NCBI GenBank assembly: GCA_000753575.1
Contig: JRFF01000053.1
Location: 89,641-121,640, forward strand
DNA length: 32,000 nucleotides
Direction: 5' to 3'
DNA from: Candidatus Izimoplasma sp. HR2
GTDB lineage: Bacteria > Bacillota_I > Bacilli_A > Izemoplasmatales > Izemoplasmataceae
Part shown: in pieces, positions 16,589 through 25,832 of the stretch
Layout of the letters: each line of letters starts with the position of its first letter
How positions within the stretch are numbered: the first letter of the stretch is position 1
Program-made: the position numbers and the translations under genes
The notes under the pieces: model-generated
Database searches by the model: none
What the model was told of the DNA's origin: nothing
Seen by the model: the letters and a program-made list of their open reading frames with translations, nothing else

Positions 16589-16624
16589 AAAAATAAAATA
16601 GCCTTGTCACGGATGATCAAGGCT
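16589..16624 (-). terminator. rho-independent terminator closing the tRNA island
   Basis: Minus-strand stem agccttg/caaggct followed by ATTTTATTTTT, directly downstream of tRNA-Val. Confidence 0.7.
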
Positions 16625-16629
16625 TAGTC

Positions 16630-16703
16630 TGGTGCTCGATGAAAGAATCGAACTTTCATTTTAGGTATGTAACACCCATGTCCTCCCGTTAGACGAATCG
16701 AGC
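16630..16703 (-). tRNA. tRNA-Val(UAC)
   Basis: Acceptor gctcgat/atcgagc. Anticodon loop gtTACat. T arm gaaag-ttcgatt-ctttc. CCA encoded. Confidence 0.85.
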
Positions 16704-16852
16704 ATATGTAATGCCTAGTATTTTTCGTGGTGTACTAGGCAACACCATCTTTTGGCAATAGCTCTGCGAATCAGACTGTCAAGGTTCCTCCCGGGTTAGC
16801 AATAGCTTTCCTTTTTTAAGGGAATTTTAAGACCTCCGGTCACACAGGTCTA

Positions 16853-16926
16853 TGGCGGTTCTACAGAGAATCGAACTCTGATTTTTTGGCAGACAACCAA
16901 TTGTAATACCATTATACTATAAAACC
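16853..16926 (-). tRNA. tRNA-Asp(GUC)
   Basis: Acceptor ggtttta/tagaacc. Anticodon loop ttGTCtg (U at position 37). T arm cagag-ttcgatt-ctctg. CCA encoded. Confidence 0.75.
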
Positions 16927-17178
16927 AAGCTTTCTTACTCTTTTTATAAAGCGATGGTAAGAGACCCGCATATTTATTGGAAAACGCTTAAAACCAATTA
17001 ATATATCAAGTTTAATATATTTGTAGATGACTTACATATATTAAACGTATATTATTTTTTTTTCTGTTTAATCATCTTAGATGTATTCACATCTCTTCAC
17101 AGAATCGTATTTTTTTGATTAGAGTTTTGACATTCTATCCATCGATGAATAGTGTCTTAGACAGACTCTTACTGCCTT

Positions 17179-17254
17179 TGGAGCGAACAGTCAGAATCGA
17201 ACTGACGGCATACTAGTTTTGCAGACTAGTCCCTGCCCATTTGGGGTTATTCGC
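17179..17254 (-). tRNA. tRNA-Cys(GCA)
   Basis: Acceptor gcgaata/tgttcgc. Anticodon arm ctagt-ctGCAaa-actag. T arm gtcag-ttcgatt-ctgac. CCA encoded. Confidence 0.8.
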
Positions 17255-17257
17255 ATA

Positions 17258-17351
17258 TGGCGGGCATCGGATACCGAATTTCACGGATAACTCTATTGTA
17301 ATCGCAAGATATCATAACGAATTACAGAGACCACAATATATATGGGTGCCC
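17258..17351 (-). ncRNA. 94-nt tRNA-like RNA with CCA end and elongated central hairpin
   Basis: Acceptor-like gggcacc/gatgccc (one mismatch) + g + CCA. Long bulged hairpin tgtaattcg/cgattaca. Only a weak T-arm analogue (ccg-tgaaatt-cgg). Confidence 0.35.
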
Positions 17352-17467
17352 ATGTTTTGAATAAGATATTTGGGAGAAGAAACAACTATACTCATAAACG
17401 GGTCGTTCCTTACCTCGTTTTAAGGATTACAAGTTCTTTATCTCCTTTCCTAAATATCTTATTCAAT

Positions 17468-17543
17468 TGGTGGATTGAGAGAGATTTGAACTCTCGACCT
17501 CTGGTTCTTCAAACCAACACTCTTCCAACTGAGTTATCAATCC
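17468..17543 (-). tRNA. tRNA-Phe(GAA)
   Basis: Acceptor ggattga/tcaatcc. Anticodon loop ttGAAga. T arm gagag-ttcaaat-ctctc. CCA encoded. Confidence 0.85.
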
Positions 17544-17554
17544 ATATTCATTTC

Positions 17555-17625
17555 AAGACACTAATTTATATACAATCCATATTTGTATGGCTTAGCAGCC
17601 TGTTTTGATTTGCTGTATGTGTCTT
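17555..17625. ncRNA. three-helix structured RNA, copy A
   Basis: Closing stem aagacac/gtgtctt. Hairpins atacaa/ttgtat and ggct-tagc-agcc. Strand not determined. Confidence 0.5.
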
Positions 17626-17645
17626 ATGAATTATTATTTTATATC

Positions 17646-17712
17646 AAGACGCTAATTTTTATCCAATTAAAAGTTGGTCGCTTAGCAGCGGTTGATGTGC
17701 TGTATGCGTCTT
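17646..17712. ncRNA. three-helix structured RNA, copy B
   Basis: Same architecture as copy A with compensatory changes: aagacgc/gcgtctt, ccaa/ttgg, cgct-tagc-agcg. Confidence 0.5.
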
Positions 17713-17776
17713 TATGTTGGGTTTTGTCTGTACAAACAGGAATTATAGGGACTTTAACCAACTTCCTTGAACCTAG

Positions 17777-17853
17777 TGGTATGTAGGGAGAGGCTCGAAC
17801 TCTCAAAACTTTGGGTCTAAGCCAAAGATCTCCTCCATTTGGATTACCTACAC
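17777..17853 (-). tRNA. class-I-sized tRNA with anticodon UAG (Leu-type anticodon, no long variable arm)
   Basis: Acceptor gtgtagg/cctacat. Anticodon arm ctttgg-ctTAGac-ccaaag. 4-nt variable loop. T arm gagag-ttcgagc-ctctc. CCA encoded. Irregular D arm. Confidence 0.65.
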
Positions 17854-17881
17854 ATATTTTTTTATTTCTTAACTTATTATT

Positions 17882-17910
17882 ATTATAACATATCTTTATT
17901 GAGATGTCAA
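17882..17910 (-). promoter_or_regulatory. sigma70-type promoter inside the tRNA island
   Basis: Minus strand TTGACA-17 nt-TATAAT, exact consensus. Confidence 0.7.
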
Positions 17911-17924
17911 ATAAGATAGTTAAC

Positions 17925-24097: not shown

Positions 24098-24129
24098 GTG
24101 TTTCCTCCTTATTTTTAATGAAAAAAACC

Positions 24130-24200
24130 TAGATGCATTTTAATTTCTGTAAAGCAAGTTGCCCAGCTTTTCTTAAATTTTAGTTTGCTGTTCGCATCTA
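24130..24200. ncRNA. 71-nt closed structured RNA next to the TROVE-vWA gene start
   Basis: Terminal helix tagatgc/gcatcta. Inner helix aaagc/gcttt. Lies between tRNA-Gln and the CDS start. Confidence 0.4.
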
Positions 24201-24209
24201 ATTTTTGGT

Positions 24210-24284
24210 TGGCGTGGCTAGGAAGATTCGAACTTCCATCTACAGATTCAAAGCCTGTCGCATTTACCCTTACACTATAGCCAT
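24210..24284 (-). tRNA. tRNA-Gln(UUG)
   Basis: Acceptor atggcta/tagccac with an unpaired 1:72 position. Anticodon arm acagg-ctTTGaa-tctgt. T arm ggaag-ttcgaat-cttcc. CCA encoded. Confidence 0.8.
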
Positions 24285-24373
24285 ATGTATCCTGCATTTT
24301 ATTACACGATGCAGTATCGTTACTTCCGTATTCTTTTAGTTGTCTGAAGTGACAACACATACTTAATATGTAA

Positions 24374-24449
24374 TGGAGCTCCTCCTCAGAATCGAACTGA
24401 GATTCACAGATTACAAAACTGTAGTAATTTGCCATTATACGAAAGGAGC
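24374..24449 (-). tRNA. tRNA-Thr(UGU)
   Basis: Acceptor gctcctt/gaggagc. Anticodon loop ttTGTaa. T arm tcaga-ttcgatt... read as ctcag-ttcgatt-ctgag. CCA encoded. Confidence 0.8.
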
Positions 24450-24596
24450 ATATCCTGTCTATTTTTATCGACCTTGACAGGTTGGTCTATGCATCACAGA
24501 GAGCTACTCCGTACTTAGCATCTCATTTTATCTTTAAAGTGCTACGATGAGAAACAAAGCACTTCCCCAATTTAAAGTGATGAGAGCACACTATAC

Positions 24597-24694
24597 TAGA
24601 CACAAAATTATCACTGGAATCGAACCAGTCTTAAAAAATTCGTAGTTTTTTTTGCCTACCATTGGCTTGATTTTAGTTTTGCTGTGTGTGTCTA
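24597..24694 (-). ncRNA. 98-nt tRNA-like RNA with an Arg(ACG)-type loop on an all-A:U stem, enclosed by an extra 8-bp helix
   Basis: Outer helix tagacaca/tgtgtcta. D arm gcc-aatggta-ggc. aaaaa-ctACGaa-ttttt. T arm actgg-ttcgatt-ccagt. Degenerate acceptor and no CCA. Confidence 0.4.
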
Positions 24695-24708
24695 AATGGT
24701 AAATATAT

Positions 24709-25074
24709 TTATTTATTATGTTCTTCTCTATGACAATTAGCACATAATAAAATACATTTCTCTAGTTCTTTTTTATATTTATCCCAACTTCTAGTATTTC
24801 CATTACCTAACCCACTCTCTTTGATAGCTGGGTCTAAATGATGAAATTCTAATGCATCAATACATTTATCATAATTGCATTTACTACATTTTCCACCTTT
24901 AATTTTTACTGCTTGTTTTTTCATAGCACGTCTTAAAACAGTTTTATTATGCACTTGACGTTCTTTTTCTCCTTCTCCATTTTTAGTTGAAGGACTACAC
25001 TCAAAACAGTATTTTCTAGTTCCTCCACCTTTAATAGGCGTAAATTCTTTTCCACAAATTTCACATTTTTTCAT
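24709..25074 (-). CDS. HNH homing endonuclease
   Basis: N-terminal CxxC..CxxC zinc motifs and C-terminal EFHHLDP..LLCANCHREEH. ATG at 25074 is preferred over the longer track start. Confidence 0.8.
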   Translation of the reverse strand: MKKCEICGKEFTPIKGGGTRKYCFECSPSTKNGEGEKERQVHNKTVLRRAMKKQAVKIKGGKCSKCNYDKCIDALEFHHLDPAIKESGLGNGNTRSWDKYKKELEKCILLCANCHREEHNK

Positions 25075-25135
25075 TGTATTCCCTTTCTTTTTTTTAGAAA
25101 GGATTGCCGCATCACAGTACGGCATTAATCCAATT

Positions 25136-25211
25136 TGGCGGGCGAGATGGGAGTTGAACCCACAATCTCAAAATTAACAGTTTTTTGCTTTTCCTATTAA
25201 GCTTCTCACCC
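25136..25211 (-). tRNA. tRNA-Asn(GUU)
   Basis: Acceptor gggtgag/ctcgccc. Anticodon loop ctGTTaa on an A:U stem. T arm gtggg-ttcaact-cccat. CCA encoded. Confidence 0.8.
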
Positions 25212-25270
25212 ATAAATTTAACGGGATTTTTAGAAGCTCCCAATACTTCATTAGTTCAGTTAAGAACCGT

Positions 25271-25355
25271 TGGAGGAGCACCAGAGAATCGAACTCTGTA
25301 GAGTATTACCTCCTCATAGTTTTCAAGACTACTTATCACCATTAATGTATGCTCC
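25271..25355 (-). tRNA. tRNA-Ser(UGA), class II
   Basis: Acceptor ggagcat/gtgctcc. Anticodon arm gtagt-ctTGAaa-actat. Long variable arm. T arm cagag-ttcgatt-ctctg. CCA encoded. Confidence 0.85.
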
Positions 25356-25461
25356 ATGTCCCTTAGACTTTTTTAGGAGTGTCCCTGGGTATTCATCTCC
25401 ACAACTTATATTTAAGTCTAGTTGCCAAAGACTGTGGTATTAGCTTAAAATTTAAGCTAAC

Positions 25462-25535
25462 TGGCAAAGGTCAGAAGAGTCGAACTCCTATCTTGAGGTT
25501 TGAAAGCTCCTGTCTTACCGTTAGACGAGACCAAT
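25462..25535 (-). tRNA. candidate UGA-decoding tRNA(UCA) (Trp-like / opal suppressor)
   Basis: attggtc tc gtct aacggta agac a ggagc ttTCAaa cctca agat aggag ttcgact cttct gaccttt g cca. D and T arms are perfect. A1-U72 and G73 match the CCA isoacceptor. The acceptor has two U.U mismatches and the anticodon stem has only 3 bp. Confidence 0.6.
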
Positions 25536-25722
25536 ACAGTTAGAATTTCTACTTTGATAATACAATTACTTTTTCCATCAGTATTTTTCTAGGCACGAAA
25601 CTGTATTAATTGGAAAAAGTAACTACTATCCAGTATATTAAAAAGATTTCTCTTTCAATTTATTCTTCTGTTAGAAGTTTTATTTTGCTGGATGTGCCTT
25701 TATTTTTCTAAGTCCTATAATA

Positions 25723-25751
25723 ATTATATCATATTTTGTTCCAGAAGTCAA
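25723..25751 (-). promoter_or_regulatory. sigma70-type promoter (proximal) feeding the tRNA island
   Basis: TTGACT-17 nt-TATAAT on the minus strand. Confidence 0.65.
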
Positions 25752-25803
25752 TGAATCTTGCTATATTTTCTAGTTTTTTTGATTTCTTTTAACTTCTATA
25801 TAT

Positions 25804-25832
25804 ATTATATCACATTTATTCTAATATGTCAA
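25804..25832 (-). promoter_or_regulatory. sigma70-type promoter (distal) with ATATATAGAA extension
   Basis: TTGACA-17 nt-TATAAT-ATATATAGAAGT on the minus strand, downstream of the gyrA stop. Confidence 0.7.

What the first reader, a model, noticed from the sequence alone, without database searches (positions are those of the whole stretch)
16589..25832. ~9 kb promoter-to-terminator tRNA/structured-RNA island with a near-complete decoding set
Twenty-four of my 26 tRNA calls lie between the promoters at 25.7-25.8 kb and the terminator at 16589..16624. The other two are at 12510 and 14198. Together they cover Ala, Arg x2, Asn, Asp, Cys, Gln, Glu, Gly x2, His, Ile x2, Lys, Phe, Pro, Ser x2, Thr, Trp x2, Tyr and Val, plus UAG, UAA and CAU species. 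Anticodons are strongly biased to U34 (UAU, UCU, UUU, UUC, UUG, UGU, UGA, UGC, UCC, UGG, UAC, UAA, UAG, UCA), which suits an AT-rich genome. I found no canonical class II tRNA-Leu and no canonical tRNA-Met. By my rough estimate a third or more of the island is neither tRNA nor ORF, and much of that is more GC-rich and self-complementary than the coding DNA.
Basis: seen in the sequence. Interest (0 to 1): 0.7.

Follow-up and report, generated by a model that had tools for sequence, protein, structure and literature searches.

The report
Phage tRNA island with Ro60-like RNAs
This is a phage's own set of 26 transfer-RNA genes, which lets it read TGA as tryptophan. Among those genes sit a Ro60-like protein gene and five copies of a small hairpin RNA that accompanies this protein in many unrelated phages and appears not to have been described.

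Summary
ARAGORN plus Rfam recover 26 tRNA genes, all on the minus strand, 24 of them between 16.6 and 25.5 kb. The spacers make up 41% of the island and fold better than shuffles and better than coding controls.

The window is part of a ~128-kb phage-like contig binned with Ca. Izimaplasma HR2. It reads TGA as Trp, and the first tRNA after the tandem promoters is tRNA-Trp(UCA). The 25 anticodons can read 60 of 62 sense codons (not AUG or CGG).

It is not one transcription unit: three more consensus promoters and ten ORFs lie inside. The central ORF is a DUF2828 protein with a predicted Ro60 fold.

Five spacers hold a hairpin with a covarying terminal stem and an invariant ACAGCAA beside its 5' arm. 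The same hairpin lies next to DUF2828 genes, always on the same strand, in 11 of 12 loci checked and in over 100 metagenomic loci. It often carries tRNA-like arms. Rfam 15 has no matching family; the nearest look-alikes are YrlA Y RNAs and Dictyostelium Class I RNAs.

Best reading: a phage tRNA supply cluster combined with a Ro60-like/Y-RNA-like module. The tRNA cluster is ordinary; the RNA family appears new.

The parts
25804..25832 (-). Promoter P1 (TTGACA-17-TGnTATAAT, 12/12)
25723..25751 (-). Promoter P2 (TTGACT-17-TGaTATAAT, 11/12); hairpin H1 starts about 25 nt downstream
25591..25699 (-). Hairpin H1: AGGCAC-ATC-CAGCAAA...GTGCCT variant. Syntenic copy in L005 near 8946. Not reached by model R1.
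25462..25535 (-). tRNA-Trp(UCA), reads TGA; A1-U72, G73, encoded CCA
25271..25355 (-). tRNA-Ser(UGA), class II
25136..25211 (-). tRNA-Asn(GUU)
24709..25074 (-). HNH endonuclease ORF (121 aa from the ATG that follows a ribosome-binding site)
24597..24694 (-). Hairpin H2: TAGACACA-CA-CAGCAAA...TGTGTCTA. It encloses a D-arm-like, an anticodon-arm-like and a T-arm module. Relaxed ARAGORN calls 24606-24674 a tRNA-like element.
   Evidence: model R1 37.5 bits, E = 3e-6, not in the training set; conserved in L005 9368-9463
24374..24449 (-). tRNA-Thr(UGU)
24210..24284 (-). tRNA-Gln(UUG)
24130..24200 (-). Hairpin H3: TAGATGC-GAA-CAGCAAA...GCATCTA, followed by a T run, in the 5' leader of the DUF2828 gene
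   Evidence: 38.5 bits; L005 9884-9972 (41.6 bits)
22580..24097 (-). DUF2828/DUF7788 (vWA) protein, 505 aa, predicted Ro60 fold
22477..22551 (-). tRNA-His(GUG)
22277..22459 (-). 60-aa ORF that reads through one TGA (…VYWRCLQKNC…)
22198..22272 (-). tRNA-Gly(UCC)
21924..21998 (-). tRNA-Gly(GCC)
21508..21906 (-). 132-aa ORF with one in-frame TGA
21427..21502 (-). tRNA-Arg(UCU)
21309..21360 (-). Stem GACAGA/TCTGTC enclosing a T-arm-like hairpin. It lacks the ACAGCAA core.
21224..21302 (-). tRNA-Ala(UGC)
21044..21072 (-). Internal promoter (12/12, extended -10)
20776..21003 (-). 75-aa ORF
20711..20785 (-). tRNA-Ile(GAU)
20627..20701 (-). tRNA-Ile(UAU), reads AUA
20559..20623 (-). Truncated tRNA-like element (23 bits) sharing its T arm and acceptor 3' strand with 20400-20474
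20400..20474 (-). Degenerate tRNA-Pro(UGG)-like element: G33, acceptor-stem mismatches, no CCA
20241..20316 (-). tRNA-Leu(UAA): A73, 3-bp D stem, short variable loop
20082..20156 (-). tRNA-Glu(UUC)
19795..19980 (-). 61-aa ORF
19786..19814 (-). Internal promoter (12/12, extended -10)
19611..19686 (-). tRNA-Lys(UUU)
19343..19419 (-). tRNA-Pro(UGG)
19226..19311 (-). tRNA-Tyr(GUA), class II
18930..19100 (-). About 170-nt closed structure upstream of the 67-aa basic ORF. Conserved with L005. Function unknown.
   Evidence: (z = -3.8 for the spacer)
18097..18893 (-). Four small ORFs (67, 55, 61 and 70 aa), conserved in L005
18014..18087 (-). tRNA-Trp(CCA): A1-U72, G73
17882..17910 (-). Internal promoter (12/12, extended -10)
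17777..17853 (-). tRNA-Leu(UAG): A73, short variable loop
17646..17712 (-). Hairpin H4: AAGACGC-ATA-CAGCACA...GCGTCTT. Its distal hairpin has a CTTTTAA loop, identical to the anticodon loop of tRNA-Lys(UUU).
   Evidence: 45.2 bits
17555..17625 (-). Hairpin H5: AAGACAC-ATA-CAGCAAA...GTGTCTT. It ends about 11 nt before tRNA-Phe. Syntenic copy at L005 16397-16474.
   Evidence: 46.2 bits
17468..17543 (-). tRNA-Phe(GAA)
17182..17254 (-). tRNA-Cys(GCA), U73. Found by Rfam only.
16853..16926 (-). tRNA-Asp(GUC)
16630..16703 (-). tRNA-Val(UAC)
16589..16624 (-). Terminator-like hairpin (AGCCTTG...CAAGGCT) plus T run, directly before the ribosome-binding site of the next ORF
14198..14272 (-). tRNA-Arg(ACG), outside the island
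12510..12597 (-). tRNA-Ser(GCU), outside the island, next to the PTH2 gene

Best explanation
The island is the translation and RNA-handling module of a large phage that decodes TGA as tryptophan.

tRNA supply. At least five strong sigma-70-type promoters are expected to drive several polycistronic transcripts (inferred from sequence). The host's tRNA-processing enzymes would cut these into 25 canonical tRNAs, all with an encoded CCA. The first is tRNA-Trp(UCA). There is one U34 tRNA per four-codon box, so the set can read every sense codon the phage uses except AUG and the very rare CGG.

Ro60-like module. A second function sits in the same transcripts. A divergent Ro60-family protein (DUF2828) is encoded there together with five small hairpin RNAs. 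Each hairpin has a terminal 6-7-bp stem, an invariant single-stranded ACAGCAA immediately 3' of the 5' arm, and a variable distal part. That distal part often copies pieces of a tRNA: a T arm, a D arm, or an anticodon-like loop.

Proposed mechanism (inferred). These hairpins are the Y-RNA-like partners of the DUF2828 protein. The protein would recognise the stem plus the ACAGCAA strand, as Ro60 recognises the 5' strand of the Y-RNA stem. The tRNA-like part would tether or decoy tRNA-handling enzymes. The complex would then protect, check or repair the tRNA pool during infection, or blunt host defences that attack it.

What is shown and what is inferred. Shown: the tRNA genes, the TGA=Trp reading, the predicted Ro60-like fold, the RNA motif with its covariation, and its genetic linkage to DUF2828. 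Inferred: expression, processing, protein-RNA binding and the biological role.
For: tRNAs.

Code 4:
- Minus-strand ORF coverage rises from 67% to 80% when TGA is read as sense.
- All 41 ORFs end in TAA or TAG, with 26 in-frame TGA.
- The 3 TGA codons in ThyA all align with Trp in B. subtilis ThyA.

Decoding capacity and A/T-ending codon bias.

Promoters: six consensus sites in 32 kb, all on the minus strand, five of them in the island.

Phage context: PHROG hits, SPbeta-type replication genes and an Rnl2 RNA ligase.

DUF2828 as a Ro60-like fold:
- AF2 model with pLDDT 82.
- The top nine Foldseek PDB hits are all Ro60/Rsr, aligned full-length, TM 0.45-0.53, E down to 1e-7.
- The MIDAS residues D302/S304/S306/T367/D399 are invariant.

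Hairpin family:
- Five copies in the window against 0.62 expected from shuffles, all on the minus strand.
- Model R1 scores 37-46 bits for four of them, including one not used in training.
- In alignment A2 the 7-bp helix is 95% paired, all 7 pairs show double changes, and 0 of 500 shuffles reach this. The outer pair was never selected for and is A-U 23, U-A 12, G-C 3.

Linkage to DUF2828:
- Of 238 loci fetched with the 5' 16-mer alone, 115 carry the closing arm.
- 56 of those 115 have a DUF2828 gene in the fetched stretch, against 2 of the other 123.
- 80 of 80 hairpins are on the gene's strand, at a median distance of 464 nt.
- 89 of the 115 hairpin loci carry tRNAs, against 12 of 123.
- Starting instead from DUF2828 genes, 11 of 12 loci have ACAGCAA hairpins with different but complementary arms beside the gene. 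The positives are this window, relative L005, phages of Bacillus, Listeria, Staphylococcus, Mycobacterium, Escherichia, Campylobacter and Vibrio, an Enterococcus genome contig, and a 735-kb megaphage.

tRNA mimicry: of 133 non-redundant hairpins, 50 have a T arm, 21 also have a D arm, and 16 have anticodon-like loops, 8 of them CTTTTAA. The long form in mycobacteriophage Tyson gets a full-length sub-threshold YrlA match of 36.4 bits.

Literature: YrlA Y RNAs lie beside Ro60 genes and mimic tRNA (PMC4201824). The Felixounavirus DUF2828 protein gp130 was noted as Ro60-like, sits next to the tRNAs, and counters a host defence system (PMC11482910).
Against: - No expression, processing or binding data exist for any of these RNAs.
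- DUF2828 does not match the Pfam TROVE family. Neither a sequence nor a profile search found Ro60 in the PDB. The fold match is only moderate (TM about 0.5).
- The conserved motif (ACAGCAA) differs from the Ro60-binding motif of known Y RNAs (GGUCCGA / GNCGAA).
- The window copies hit neither Rfam YrlA nor Rfam Class I.
- H1 is not detected by the covariance model.
- One DUF2828 locus (Erwinia jumbo phage) showed no hairpin within 4 kb, and the Vibrio one was found by pattern only.
- H3 carries a T run and sits in the gene's leader, so at least some copies could act in cis.
- The host's genetic code was not determined.
- Only about 50 kb of the 128-kb contig was scanned for a tRNA-Met.
Confidence: 0.7

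Rival explanations
1. The ACAGCAA hairpins are cis-acting signals of the tRNA/DUF2828 transcripts, such as terminators, attenuators, RNase processing sites or operators on the DUF2828 mRNA. They would not be free RNAs that form a particle with the protein.
For: - H3 lies in the 5' leader of the DUF2828 gene and is followed by a T run, in both the window and L005.
- Many copies lie within 30-500 nt of the gene.
- H5 ends just before tRNA-Phe, and L005 copies end just before tRNAs.
Against: - Copies occur in tandem sets of 2-4 without T runs (Staphylococcus, Listeria, Mycobacterium).
- They lie both upstream and downstream of the gene: 53 against 27.
- Some are several kb away (H4 and H5 are 5 kb from the gene).
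- An invariant single-stranded heptamer and tRNA-like inserts are not needed for termination.
- The architecture matches free small RNAs: Y RNAs and Class I RNAs.
Confidence: 0.15
2. The island is only a codon-supply tRNA cluster. The hairpins and tRNA-like fragments are decayed tRNA genes or repeat debris. The DUF2828 gene is a passenger with no functional tie to them.
For: - Degenerate tRNA copies do exist in the island: 20400-20474, 20559-20623 and 21309-21360.
- Homing endonuclease genes in and near the island suggest frequent rearrangement.
Against: - Debris would not keep an invariant ACAGCAA and covarying stems across phages of Actinobacteria, Firmicutes and Proteobacteria.
- Debris would not always lie on the DUF2828 strand: 80 of 80.
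- Staphylococcus phage CF9 and mycobacteriophage Tyson have the hairpins beside DUF2828 with no tRNA array there.
Confidence: 0.07
3. The hairpins act at the DNA level, as protein-binding sites, recombination sites or miniature mobile elements, rather than as RNA.
For: They are short inverted repeats present in several copies per genome.
Against: - The asymmetric core is strictly strand-specific and always on the transcribed strand.
- Arm sequences differ between copies while staying complementary, with double changes in every pair.
- No target-site duplications or transposase genes were seen.
Confidence: 0.03
4. The region is a chromosomal tRNA operon of a code-4 mollicute-like bacterium, not of a phage.
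For: - The contig is deposited under a Candidatus Izimaplasma MAG.
- The U34-only anticodon pattern resembles mollicute tRNA sets (my knowledge).
Against: - The contig recurs as a separate 106-128-kb contig in several samples.
- It carries phage-type genes: a DUF2828 family with 706 phage records, Sak4-like protein, SPbeta YorF/YorH, HNH and GIY-YIG endonucleases, and Rnl2.
- There are no rRNA genes.
- Its GyrA is only about 45% identical to any cellular GyrA.
Confidence: 0.04

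Closest known systems
Large tRNA gene clusters of lytic phages (T4, T5, Felixounavirus, mycobacteriophage cluster C, Bacillus phage Tsamsa)
   Same: - Dozens of same-strand tRNA genes interspersed with small ORFs and homing endonucleases.
- Tsamsa, Felixounavirus garuso and Listeria LP-064 also place a DUF2828 gene at the edge of the array.
   Different: - This set is built for code 4: Trp-UCA comes first.
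- It has one U34 tRNA per family box, tRNA-Ile(UAU) and no Met.
- The array is broken by five consensus promoters.
Stop-codon-recoded (code 4) phages that carry their own suppressor/Trp(UCA) tRNA (described by Ivanova et al. 2014 and Borges et al. 2022; cited from memory, not read here)
   Same: In-frame TGA at conserved Trp positions, no TGA stops, and a phage-encoded tRNA(UCA).
   Different: Whether the host uses code 11, which would make this true recoding, could not be tested. Several large genes (gyrA, gyrB, DUF2828) lack TGA, but the bias is not statistically firm.
Ro60 (Rsr)-Y RNA particles: YrlA/YrlB of Salmonella and Mycobacterium, Yrl1/2 of Thermus phage phiLo (PMC4201824, PMC12135203)
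   Same: - A ring-plus-vWA protein fold.
- Small RNAs encoded beside the gene on the same strand.
- A terminal stem with a conserved 5'-strand motif in the adjoining loop.
- A tRNA-like module in T arm / acceptor-like hairpin / D arm order in the long forms.
- RNA-repair genes nearby: Rnl2 in this genome, RtcB in Listeria phage LP-064.
   Different: - The protein is Pfam DUF2828, not TROVE.
- The RNA motif is ACAGCAA, not GNCGAA or GGUCCGA.
- Most copies are short and carry only a fragment of a tRNA, or none.
- There are several paralogues per genome, scattered through a tRNA array.
- Rfam YrlA is not reached: nothing in the window, 36 bits against a cutoff of 69 at best elsewhere.
Class I RNAs of dictyostelid amoebae (Rfam RF01414; PMC7919456)
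   Same: - About 60 nt long, with a 6-bp terminal stem that covaries.
- A conserved motif directly after the 5' arm. The Rfam consensus CUUACAGCAAU contains the phage core ACAGCAA and matches Staphylococcus phage CF9 at 11 of 11 positions.
- A variable middle.
- Conserved A-A-G at the 5' end and C-U-(U)-G-U at the 3' end.
   Different: - They are eukaryotic, with their own upstream promoter element. They are reported to be unique to Dictyostelia and to bind the RRM protein Rnp1A.
- Phage copies score below the Rfam cutoff (26.2 and 22.4 bits against 41.5), and the window's H4 and H5 do not score at all.
- Whether dictyostelids have a DUF2828 protein could not be checked.
Bas63 gp130, the Felixounavirus DUF2828 protein (PMC11482910)
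   Same: Same protein family, next to the tRNA array. The authors noted its Ro60-like structure and guessed that some 'tRNAs' might be Y RNAs.
   Different: No partner RNA was identified there. Here a specific candidate is found, including four copies in a Felixounavirus.

Membership tests
Phage tRNA gene cluster | Many canonical tRNA genes clustered on one strand | tested here: met
   25 tRNAs found: 23 at 36-68 bits on Rfam tRNA (cutoff 29); Tyr and Ala by ARAGORN only. All on the minus strand, all with encoded CCA.
Phage tRNA gene cluster | Lies in a phage genome | tested here: inconclusive
   Phage-type replication, endonuclease and DUF2828 genes are present, and the contig recurs as a separate ~128-kb contig. 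Capsid and terminase genes were not looked for on the rest of the contig.
Genetic code 4 (UGA = Trp) with a cognate tRNA | In-frame TGA at conserved Trp positions, and no TGA stop codons | tested here: met
   3 of 3 TGA codons in ThyA align with Trp of PDB 1B02. 41 of 41 ORFs end in TAA or TAG.
Genetic code 4 (UGA = Trp) with a cognate tRNA | A tRNA with anticodon UCA and Trp identity elements | tested here: met
   25462-25535 has A1-U72, G73 and CCA, like the Trp(CCA) paralogue. The identity rules come from established knowledge of bacterial TrpRS.
Phage-specific stop-codon recoding (phage code differs from host code) | The host uses UGA as a stop codon | not testable with these tools
   No host sequence or statement on the host's code could be retrieved.
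Ro60/TROVE protein family | HEAT-repeat ring plus C-terminal vWA domain with a MIDAS site | tested here: met
   The top nine Foldseek hits are Ro60/Rsr, full-length, TM 0.45-0.53. DxSxS...T...D is invariant in 30 homologues.
Ro60/TROVE protein family | Sequence match to the TROVE domain or to solved Ro60 proteins | tested here: not met
   Pfam reports DUF2828, DUF7788 and a weak VWA_2 only. Neither a sequence nor a profile search found Ro60 in the PDB.
Ro60/TROVE protein family | Binds Y RNA and misfolded RNA | not testable with these tools
   Needs biochemistry.
YrlA Y RNA (Rfam RF02553) | Score at or above the Rfam gathering cutoff (69 bits) | tested here: not met
   No match at E <= 5 in the window. 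24.7 bits elsewhere in L005. 36.4 bits for the long hairpin of phage Tyson.
YrlA Y RNA (Rfam RF02553) | 5' motif GNCGAAN0-1G | tested here: not met
   The conserved motif here is ACAGCAA.
YrlA Y RNA (Rfam RF02553) | tRNA-like domain (T arm, acceptor-like hairpin, D arm) | tested here: inconclusive
   Present in 21 of 133 relatives; a T arm alone in 29. In the window only H2 has D-, anticodon- and T-arm-like parts.
YrlA Y RNA (Rfam RF02553) | Encoded next to the Ro60-family gene on the same strand | tested here: met
   80 of 80 on the same strand, median distance 464 nt; 11 of 12 loci.
Dictyostelid Class I RNA (Rfam RF01414) | Short terminal stem with compensatory changes, plus a conserved motif adjacent to the 5' arm | tested here: met
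   The shared core is ACAGCAA.
Dictyostelid Class I RNA (Rfam RF01414) | Score at or above the Rfam gathering cutoff (41.5 bits) | tested here: not met
   26.2 and 22.4 bits for Staphylococcus phage CF9. No match for window H4 and H5.
Dictyostelid Class I RNA (Rfam RF01414) | Common protein partner or common descent | not testable with these tools
   No eukaryotic sequence collection was available, and Avesson 2011 is not held.

The most novel reading that the evidence does not exclude
The ACAGCAA hairpins and the dictyostelid Class I RNAs are one ancient RNA family, and their shared partner is the DUF2828 branch of the Ro60 superfamily. DUF2828 occurs in phages and bacteria; papers on plant genes also mention the DUF2828 domain.

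In phages the particle would use interchangeable tRNA-fragment modules: T arm, D arm, and Lys/Asn/Tyr-type anticodon loops. These would decoy, tether or guide enzymes that cut or repair tRNAs, making it a general counter-defence for the phage tRNA pool.

If so, Class I RNAs are not unique to social amoebae, and their unknown mechanism gains a concrete candidate protein.
Probability: 0.3. Interest if true: 0.9.

Novelty: new variant of a known kind. Interest (0 to 1): 0.72.

Why it matters
The tRNA cluster alone is a tidy but expected example of a phage that brings its own decoding set, including the tRNA that makes TGA readable.

The new value lies in the spacers. They reveal a small-RNA family with clear covariation and an invariant heptamer. 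It is linked in position and strand to a Ro60-like protein in phages of Gram-positive, Gram-negative and actinobacterial hosts.

This gives a testable partner RNA for a protein family found in 706 deposited phage genomes. One member of that family has already been reported to counter a host defence.

It extends the Ro60/Y-RNA principle to a second protein clade with a different recognition motif. It ties that particle physically to phage tRNA arrays and RNA-repair genes. It also raises a concrete, checkable link to the Class I RNAs of Dictyostelium, whose mechanism is unknown.

Tried and rejected
Searches that found nothing useful:
- Megablast of the island against 50,697 phage records: no match.
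- Peptide-pattern scans with the DUF2828 protein: no relative in IMG/VR, and one distant Enterococcus locus in GTDB genomes.
- A GyrA homologue search meant to reach host contigs: only ~45%-identical Firmicutes sequences, so no host DNA was obtained.
- The host genetic code could not be settled from the literature held.

RNA family searches:
- Rfam at gathering and E-value thresholds found only tRNAs in the island.
- Rfam YrlA and Rfam Class I do not reach the window's hairpins.

Caveat on the 16-mer scan: about half of the stretches returned were chance matches. They were used as an internal control rather than discarded.

Promoters and terminators:
- One 'promoter' at 24461-24434 was rejected because its -10 box is the D loop of tRNA-Thr.
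- The terminator scan misses the 16589-16624 hairpin because its loop is 11 nt. The hairpin was kept on direct reading and on its fold z-score.

Ideas considered and dropped:
- UGA = Gly (code 25), because the aligned positions are Trp.
- A k-turn reading of the conserved loop, because there is no G-A tandem.
- CRISPR-repeat or anti-CRISPR RNA mimicry, because the inserts vary and are flanked by their own inverted arms.

Possible uneven use of TGA between early-looking and other genes was checked and is not significant.

Full report
**1. The observation**

Default ARAGORN finds 24 tRNA genes in the window, all on the minus strand. Twenty-two lie between 16630 and 25535, and two lie at 12510 and 14198.

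Rfam's tRNA model and a relaxed ARAGORN run add Trp(CCA) at 18014-18087 and Cys(GCA) at 17182-17254, each about 46 bits.

One of the 24 (20400-20474) is a degenerate Pro(UGG)-like copy. It has G33, acceptor-stem mismatches and no CCA. A truncated duplicate lies at 20559-20623. No tool supports a CAU species, and no Met tRNA is present.

The island is 19.8% tRNA, 39.4% ORF and 40.8% spacer. Spacer GC is 0.329 against 0.286 for ORFs. All 23 spacers of 40 nt or more fold better than dinucleotide shuffles, with mean z -2.14 and 13 below -2. Length-matched coding controls have mean z -0.54, and the difference gives p = 2.6e-5.

**2. Where the window comes from**

The DUF2828 and GyrA proteins are identical to entries deposited under 'Candidatus Izimaplasma bacterium HR2'. 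They recur on separate 106-128-kb contigs in several samples.

The surrounding genes are phage-like. They include:
- a DnaB-like helicase, a Sak4-like protein and SPbeta YorF/YorH;
- a DnaE-type polymerase;
- HNH and GIY-YIG endonucleases;
- an Rnl2-type RNA ligase;
- thymidylate synthase and DHFR;
- gyrase.

No close relative exists among deposited phages. One metagenomic contig (L005) is syntenic: its DUF2828 is 78% identical and it has the same order of about 26 tRNAs.

**3. Genetic code**

Reading TGA as sense raises minus-strand ORF coverage from 67% to 80%. All 41 ORFs end in TAA or TAG, and they contain 26 in-frame TGA against 53 TGG. The three TGA codons of the thymidylate synthase gene align with the three conserved Trp of B. 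subtilis ThyA.

What ARAGORN calls 'SeC(tca)' is therefore tRNA-Trp(UCA). Like the Trp(CCA) paralogue, it has A1-U72 and G73. It is the first gene after the tandem promoters.

Whether the host also reads TGA as Trp could not be determined. TGG outnumbering TGA two to one in a 30% GC genome hints that it does not, but this is only suggestive.

**4. The decoding set**

There are twenty-five distinct anticodons. Each four-codon box has one U34 tRNA, and Gly has an extra GCC. The set also includes Ile(GAU) plus Ile(UAU), Arg(ACG) plus Arg(UCU), and two Trp species.

With four-way U34 wobble, as in mollicutes and organelles (established knowledge), the set reads 60 of 62 sense codons. The exceptions are AUG and CGG, and CGG occurs only 5 times in 7907 codons. 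In the window's ORFs, 85% of codons end in A or T.

All 25 canonical tRNAs encode CCA.

Both Leu species have A73 and the 3-bp D stem typical of Leu tRNAs, but a 4-5-nt variable loop. Felixounavirus genomes annotate tRNA-Leu of the same length, so this is not unique.

No further tRNA lies within 7.8 kb and 9.9 kb beyond the two window ends.

**5. Transcription layout**

The whole 32-kb window has six TTGACA/T-17-TGnTATAAT sites, all on the minus strand. Five are in or at the edge of the island: 25832, 25751, 21072, 19814 and 17910. They sit in a repeated cassette that also recurs in L005.

The island is thus several strongly promoted units, not one. Expression itself is inferred.

**6. The central ORF**

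ORF 22580-24097 is a DUF2828/DUF7788 (vWA) protein, PHROG 850 'RNA-binding protein'. It has homologues in 706 phage records, including phages of Escherichia/Salmonella, Mycobacterium, Vibrio, Listeria, Staphylococcus, Campylobacter, Enterococcus and Bacillus.

Sequence and profile searches do not reach solved Ro60 structures. An AlphaFold model (pLDDT 82) does: its top nine PDB matches are all Ro60/Rsr. These are aligned over the full length, with TM 0.45-0.53 and E down to 1e-7. The MIDAS residues are invariant in the family.

In Tsamsa, Felixounavirus garuso, Listeria LP-064 and Campylobacter Los1 the gene sits at the edge of the tRNA array. A preprint noted the Ro60-like fold of the Felixounavirus protein and its counter-defence role. 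It speculated that some neighbouring 'tRNAs' might be Y RNAs (PMC11482910).

**7. The hairpin family**

Five spacers share one element on the transcribed strand. Each has:
- a 6-7-bp stem, usually (W)AGACAC/GTGTCT(W);
- a 3-nt linker;
- an invariant CAGCAAA directly after the 5' arm;
- a variable insert of 40-85 nt;
- the 3' arm, followed by a conserved G.

The copies are H1 25591-25699, H2 24597-24694, H3 24130-24200, H4 17646-17712 and H5 17555-17625. Shuffles give 0.62 such matches. Four of these positions are conserved in L005, while the inserts differ completely.

*Test starting from the RNA.* A scan of IMG/VR and metagenomes with the 5' 16-mer alone returned 238 stretches, and 115 of them have the matching 3' arm within 135 nt. 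Comparing those 115 with the other 123:
- 56 carry a DUF2828 gene inside the fetched stretch (mean 7.5 kb), against 2;
- 89 carry tRNAs, against 12.

All 80 hairpins in DUF2828-bearing loci are on the gene's strand, at a median distance of 464 nt.

*Test starting from the protein.* Eleven of twelve DUF2828 loci have one to five ACAGCAA hairpins beside the gene. The arms differ from copy to copy but are always complementary. Examples are GGAATC/GATTCC, GAGCGC/GCGCTC, AGTCTC/GAGACT and GGTAC/GTACC. The eleven are:
- this window and its relative L005;
- phages of Bacillus, Listeria, Staphylococcus, Mycobacterium, Escherichia, Campylobacter and Vibrio (the Vibrio copy by pattern only);
- an Enterococcus genome contig;
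- a 735-kb megaphage.

An Erwinia jumbo phage showed none within 4 kb.

*Covariation.* In a 43-sequence alignment the 7-bp helix is 95% paired, every pair shows double changes, and no shuffle of 500 reaches this. The outer pair was never required for detection and is A-U 23, U-A 12, G-C 3.

A covariance model built from that alignment finds H2 (not in the training set) at 37.5 bits. It also finds further untrained copies in L005, Tsamsa, Listeria, Campylobacter and the megaphage, all on the gene strand.

**8. What the inserts look like**

Of 133 non-redundant hairpins:
- 50 contain a T-arm motif, and 21 of these also have a D arm, in the order T arm, acceptor-like hairpin, D arm, as in YrlA;
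- 16 have 7-nt anticodon-like loops, eight of them CTTTTAA (the tRNA-Lys(UUU) loop) and three CTGTTAA (Asn).

In the window, H2 holds D-, anticodon- and T-arm-like parts closed by the ACAGCAA stem in place of an acceptor stem. H4 holds a CTTTTAA loop.

The long form in mycobacteriophage Tyson gets a full-length but sub-threshold match to Rfam YrlA (36.4 bits).

**9. Comparison with known RNAs**

*YrlA and Y RNAs.* They share four features (PMC4201824, PMC12135203): a location beside a Ro60-family gene, the same strand, a terminal stem with a conserved 5'-strand motif, and tRNA mimicry. They differ in the motif (GNCGAA against ACAGCAA) and in the protein clade. The Rfam YrlA model does not reach the window's copies.

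*Class I RNAs.* The Rfam model for Dictyostelium Class I RNAs has the consensus GaUcuC-CUUACAGCAAU-variable-GagAuC-UG. It aligns full-length, but below threshold, with two hairpins of Staphylococcus phage CF9. One of them matches the 11-nt motif at 11 of 11 positions.

Class I RNAs are described as follows (PMC7919456):
- about 60 nt long;
- a covarying 6-bp terminal stem;
- an 11-nt motif next to the 5' arm;
- AAG and CUGU ends;
- reported to be unique to Dictyostelia.

The window's H4 and H5 are not hit by that model. Membership is therefore not claimed, but the architecture and the core heptamer are the same. No paper in the library links Class I RNAs with Ro60-type proteins, and none describes the phage hairpins.

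**10. How it most likely works**

Shown:
- the genes;
- the TGA=Trp reading;
- the predicted Ro60-like fold;
- the RNA motif and its covariation;
- its linkage to DUF2828 and to tRNA arrays.

Inferred:
- The promoters drive early, heavy transcription.
- tRNA processing releases both the tRNAs and the hairpins that lie between them.
- The DUF2828 ring binds the stem plus the ACAGCAA strand.
- The tRNA-like module recruits or decoys tRNA-handling enzymes.

The RNA ligase, the PTH2 hydrolase, and (in Listeria phages) the RtcB genes nearby suggest a role in keeping the tRNA pool usable under attack. This would parallel the Salmonella rsr-yrlBA-rtcBA operon, which responds to damaged tRNAs (PMC7790460, abstract). 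H3 sits in the gene's leader and has a T run, so it may also allow feedback on DUF2828 expression.

**11. Verdict**

The structured spacers are the interesting part. They contain a widespread RNA family, apparently undescribed, that is the best candidate partner of a Ro60-like phage protein. About 3.3 kb of spacer is still unexplained. This includes a conserved ~170-nt structure at 18930-19100 and a 110-nt hairpin at 17357-17466.

Noticed in passing
window 28555-31492 (-): gyrB is split into a 451-aa N part (30137-31492) and a 161-aa C part (28555-29040). A GIY-YIG endonuclease ORF (29244-30092, three in-frame TGA) lies between them. Relative L005 has an intact 643-aa gyrB. This may be an intron or a homing-endonuclease insertion; Rfam reports no group I intron.
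   Followed up: partly
window 12085-12471 (-): A PTH2-type peptidyl-tRNA hydrolase (Pfam E = 1e-37) is encoded next to tRNA-Ser(GCU). This is the archaeal/eukaryal type of the enzyme, in a phage.
   Followed up: no
L254 3671-4606 (same contig, about 13 kb upstream of the DUF2828 gene, outside the window): An Rnl2-type RNA ligase (RNA_ligase plus T4_Rnl2_C domains), with a metallophosphatase gene nearby. This points to RNA-repair capacity in the same genome.
   Followed up: no
L246 (Listeria phage LP-064) 3462-4013, 4657-4916, 7846-9057: A sub-threshold ROOL RNA (87 bits against a cutoff of 99) lies in the tRNA array just before three ACAGCAA hairpins and the DUF2828 gene. RtcB and an RNA ligase gene follow downstream.
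   Followed up: no
window 20241-20316 and 17777-17853 (-): Both tRNA-Leu species (UAA, UAG) have A73 and a 3-bp D stem but only a 4-5-nt variable loop, so they are class I in length. The same is true in L005, and tRNA-Leu genes of 77-78 nt are annotated in Felixounavirus garuso.
   Followed up: partly
window 20627-20701 (-): tRNA-Ile(UAU) is present for AUA codons (322 uses in the window's ORFs). There is no CAU tRNA that could be a lysidine-type Ile or a Met tRNA. L005 has a Met(CAU) where the window has Trp(CCA).
   Followed up: partly
window 18930-19100 (-): An approximately 170-nt structure closed by a 13-bp stem lies upstream of a basic 67-aa ORF. The 398-nt alignment that covers this structure and the ORF is 76% identical to L005 14794-15181, and the spacer has z = -3.8. 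There is no Rfam match. It is possibly a leader or regulatory RNA.
   Followed up: partly
window 17357-17466 (-): A near-perfect 110-nt hairpin lies between tRNA-Phe and tRNA-Cys (spacer z = -4.0). It showed no BLAST match to L005.
   Followed up: no
window 20400-20474, 20559-20623, 21309-21360 (-): Three degenerate tRNA-derived elements: a Pro-like copy with G33, a truncated duplicate of it, and a T arm closed by a GACAGA/TCTGTC stem. None has the ACAGCAA core.
   Followed up: partly
window 22277-22459 (-): A small ORF becomes a 60-aa protein with four Cys only if its TGA is read as Trp (…HCKKH…VYWRCLQKNCRAGC…).
   Followed up: no
window 25860-25760, 21096-21014, 19847-19765, 17922-17856, 15187-15104 (-); several sites in L005: The consensus promoters sit in a repeated ~80-nt cassette with conserved flanks (…ATATATAGAAGTTAAA… after the -10 box). 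The cassette recurs many times in the relative L005.
   Followed up: partly
L252 (uncultured phage LR756503, 735 kb) 3869-3907 and 1792-1848: A 735-kb megaphage also has a DUF2828 gene, with ACAGCAA hairpins directly upstream of it.
   Followed up: no
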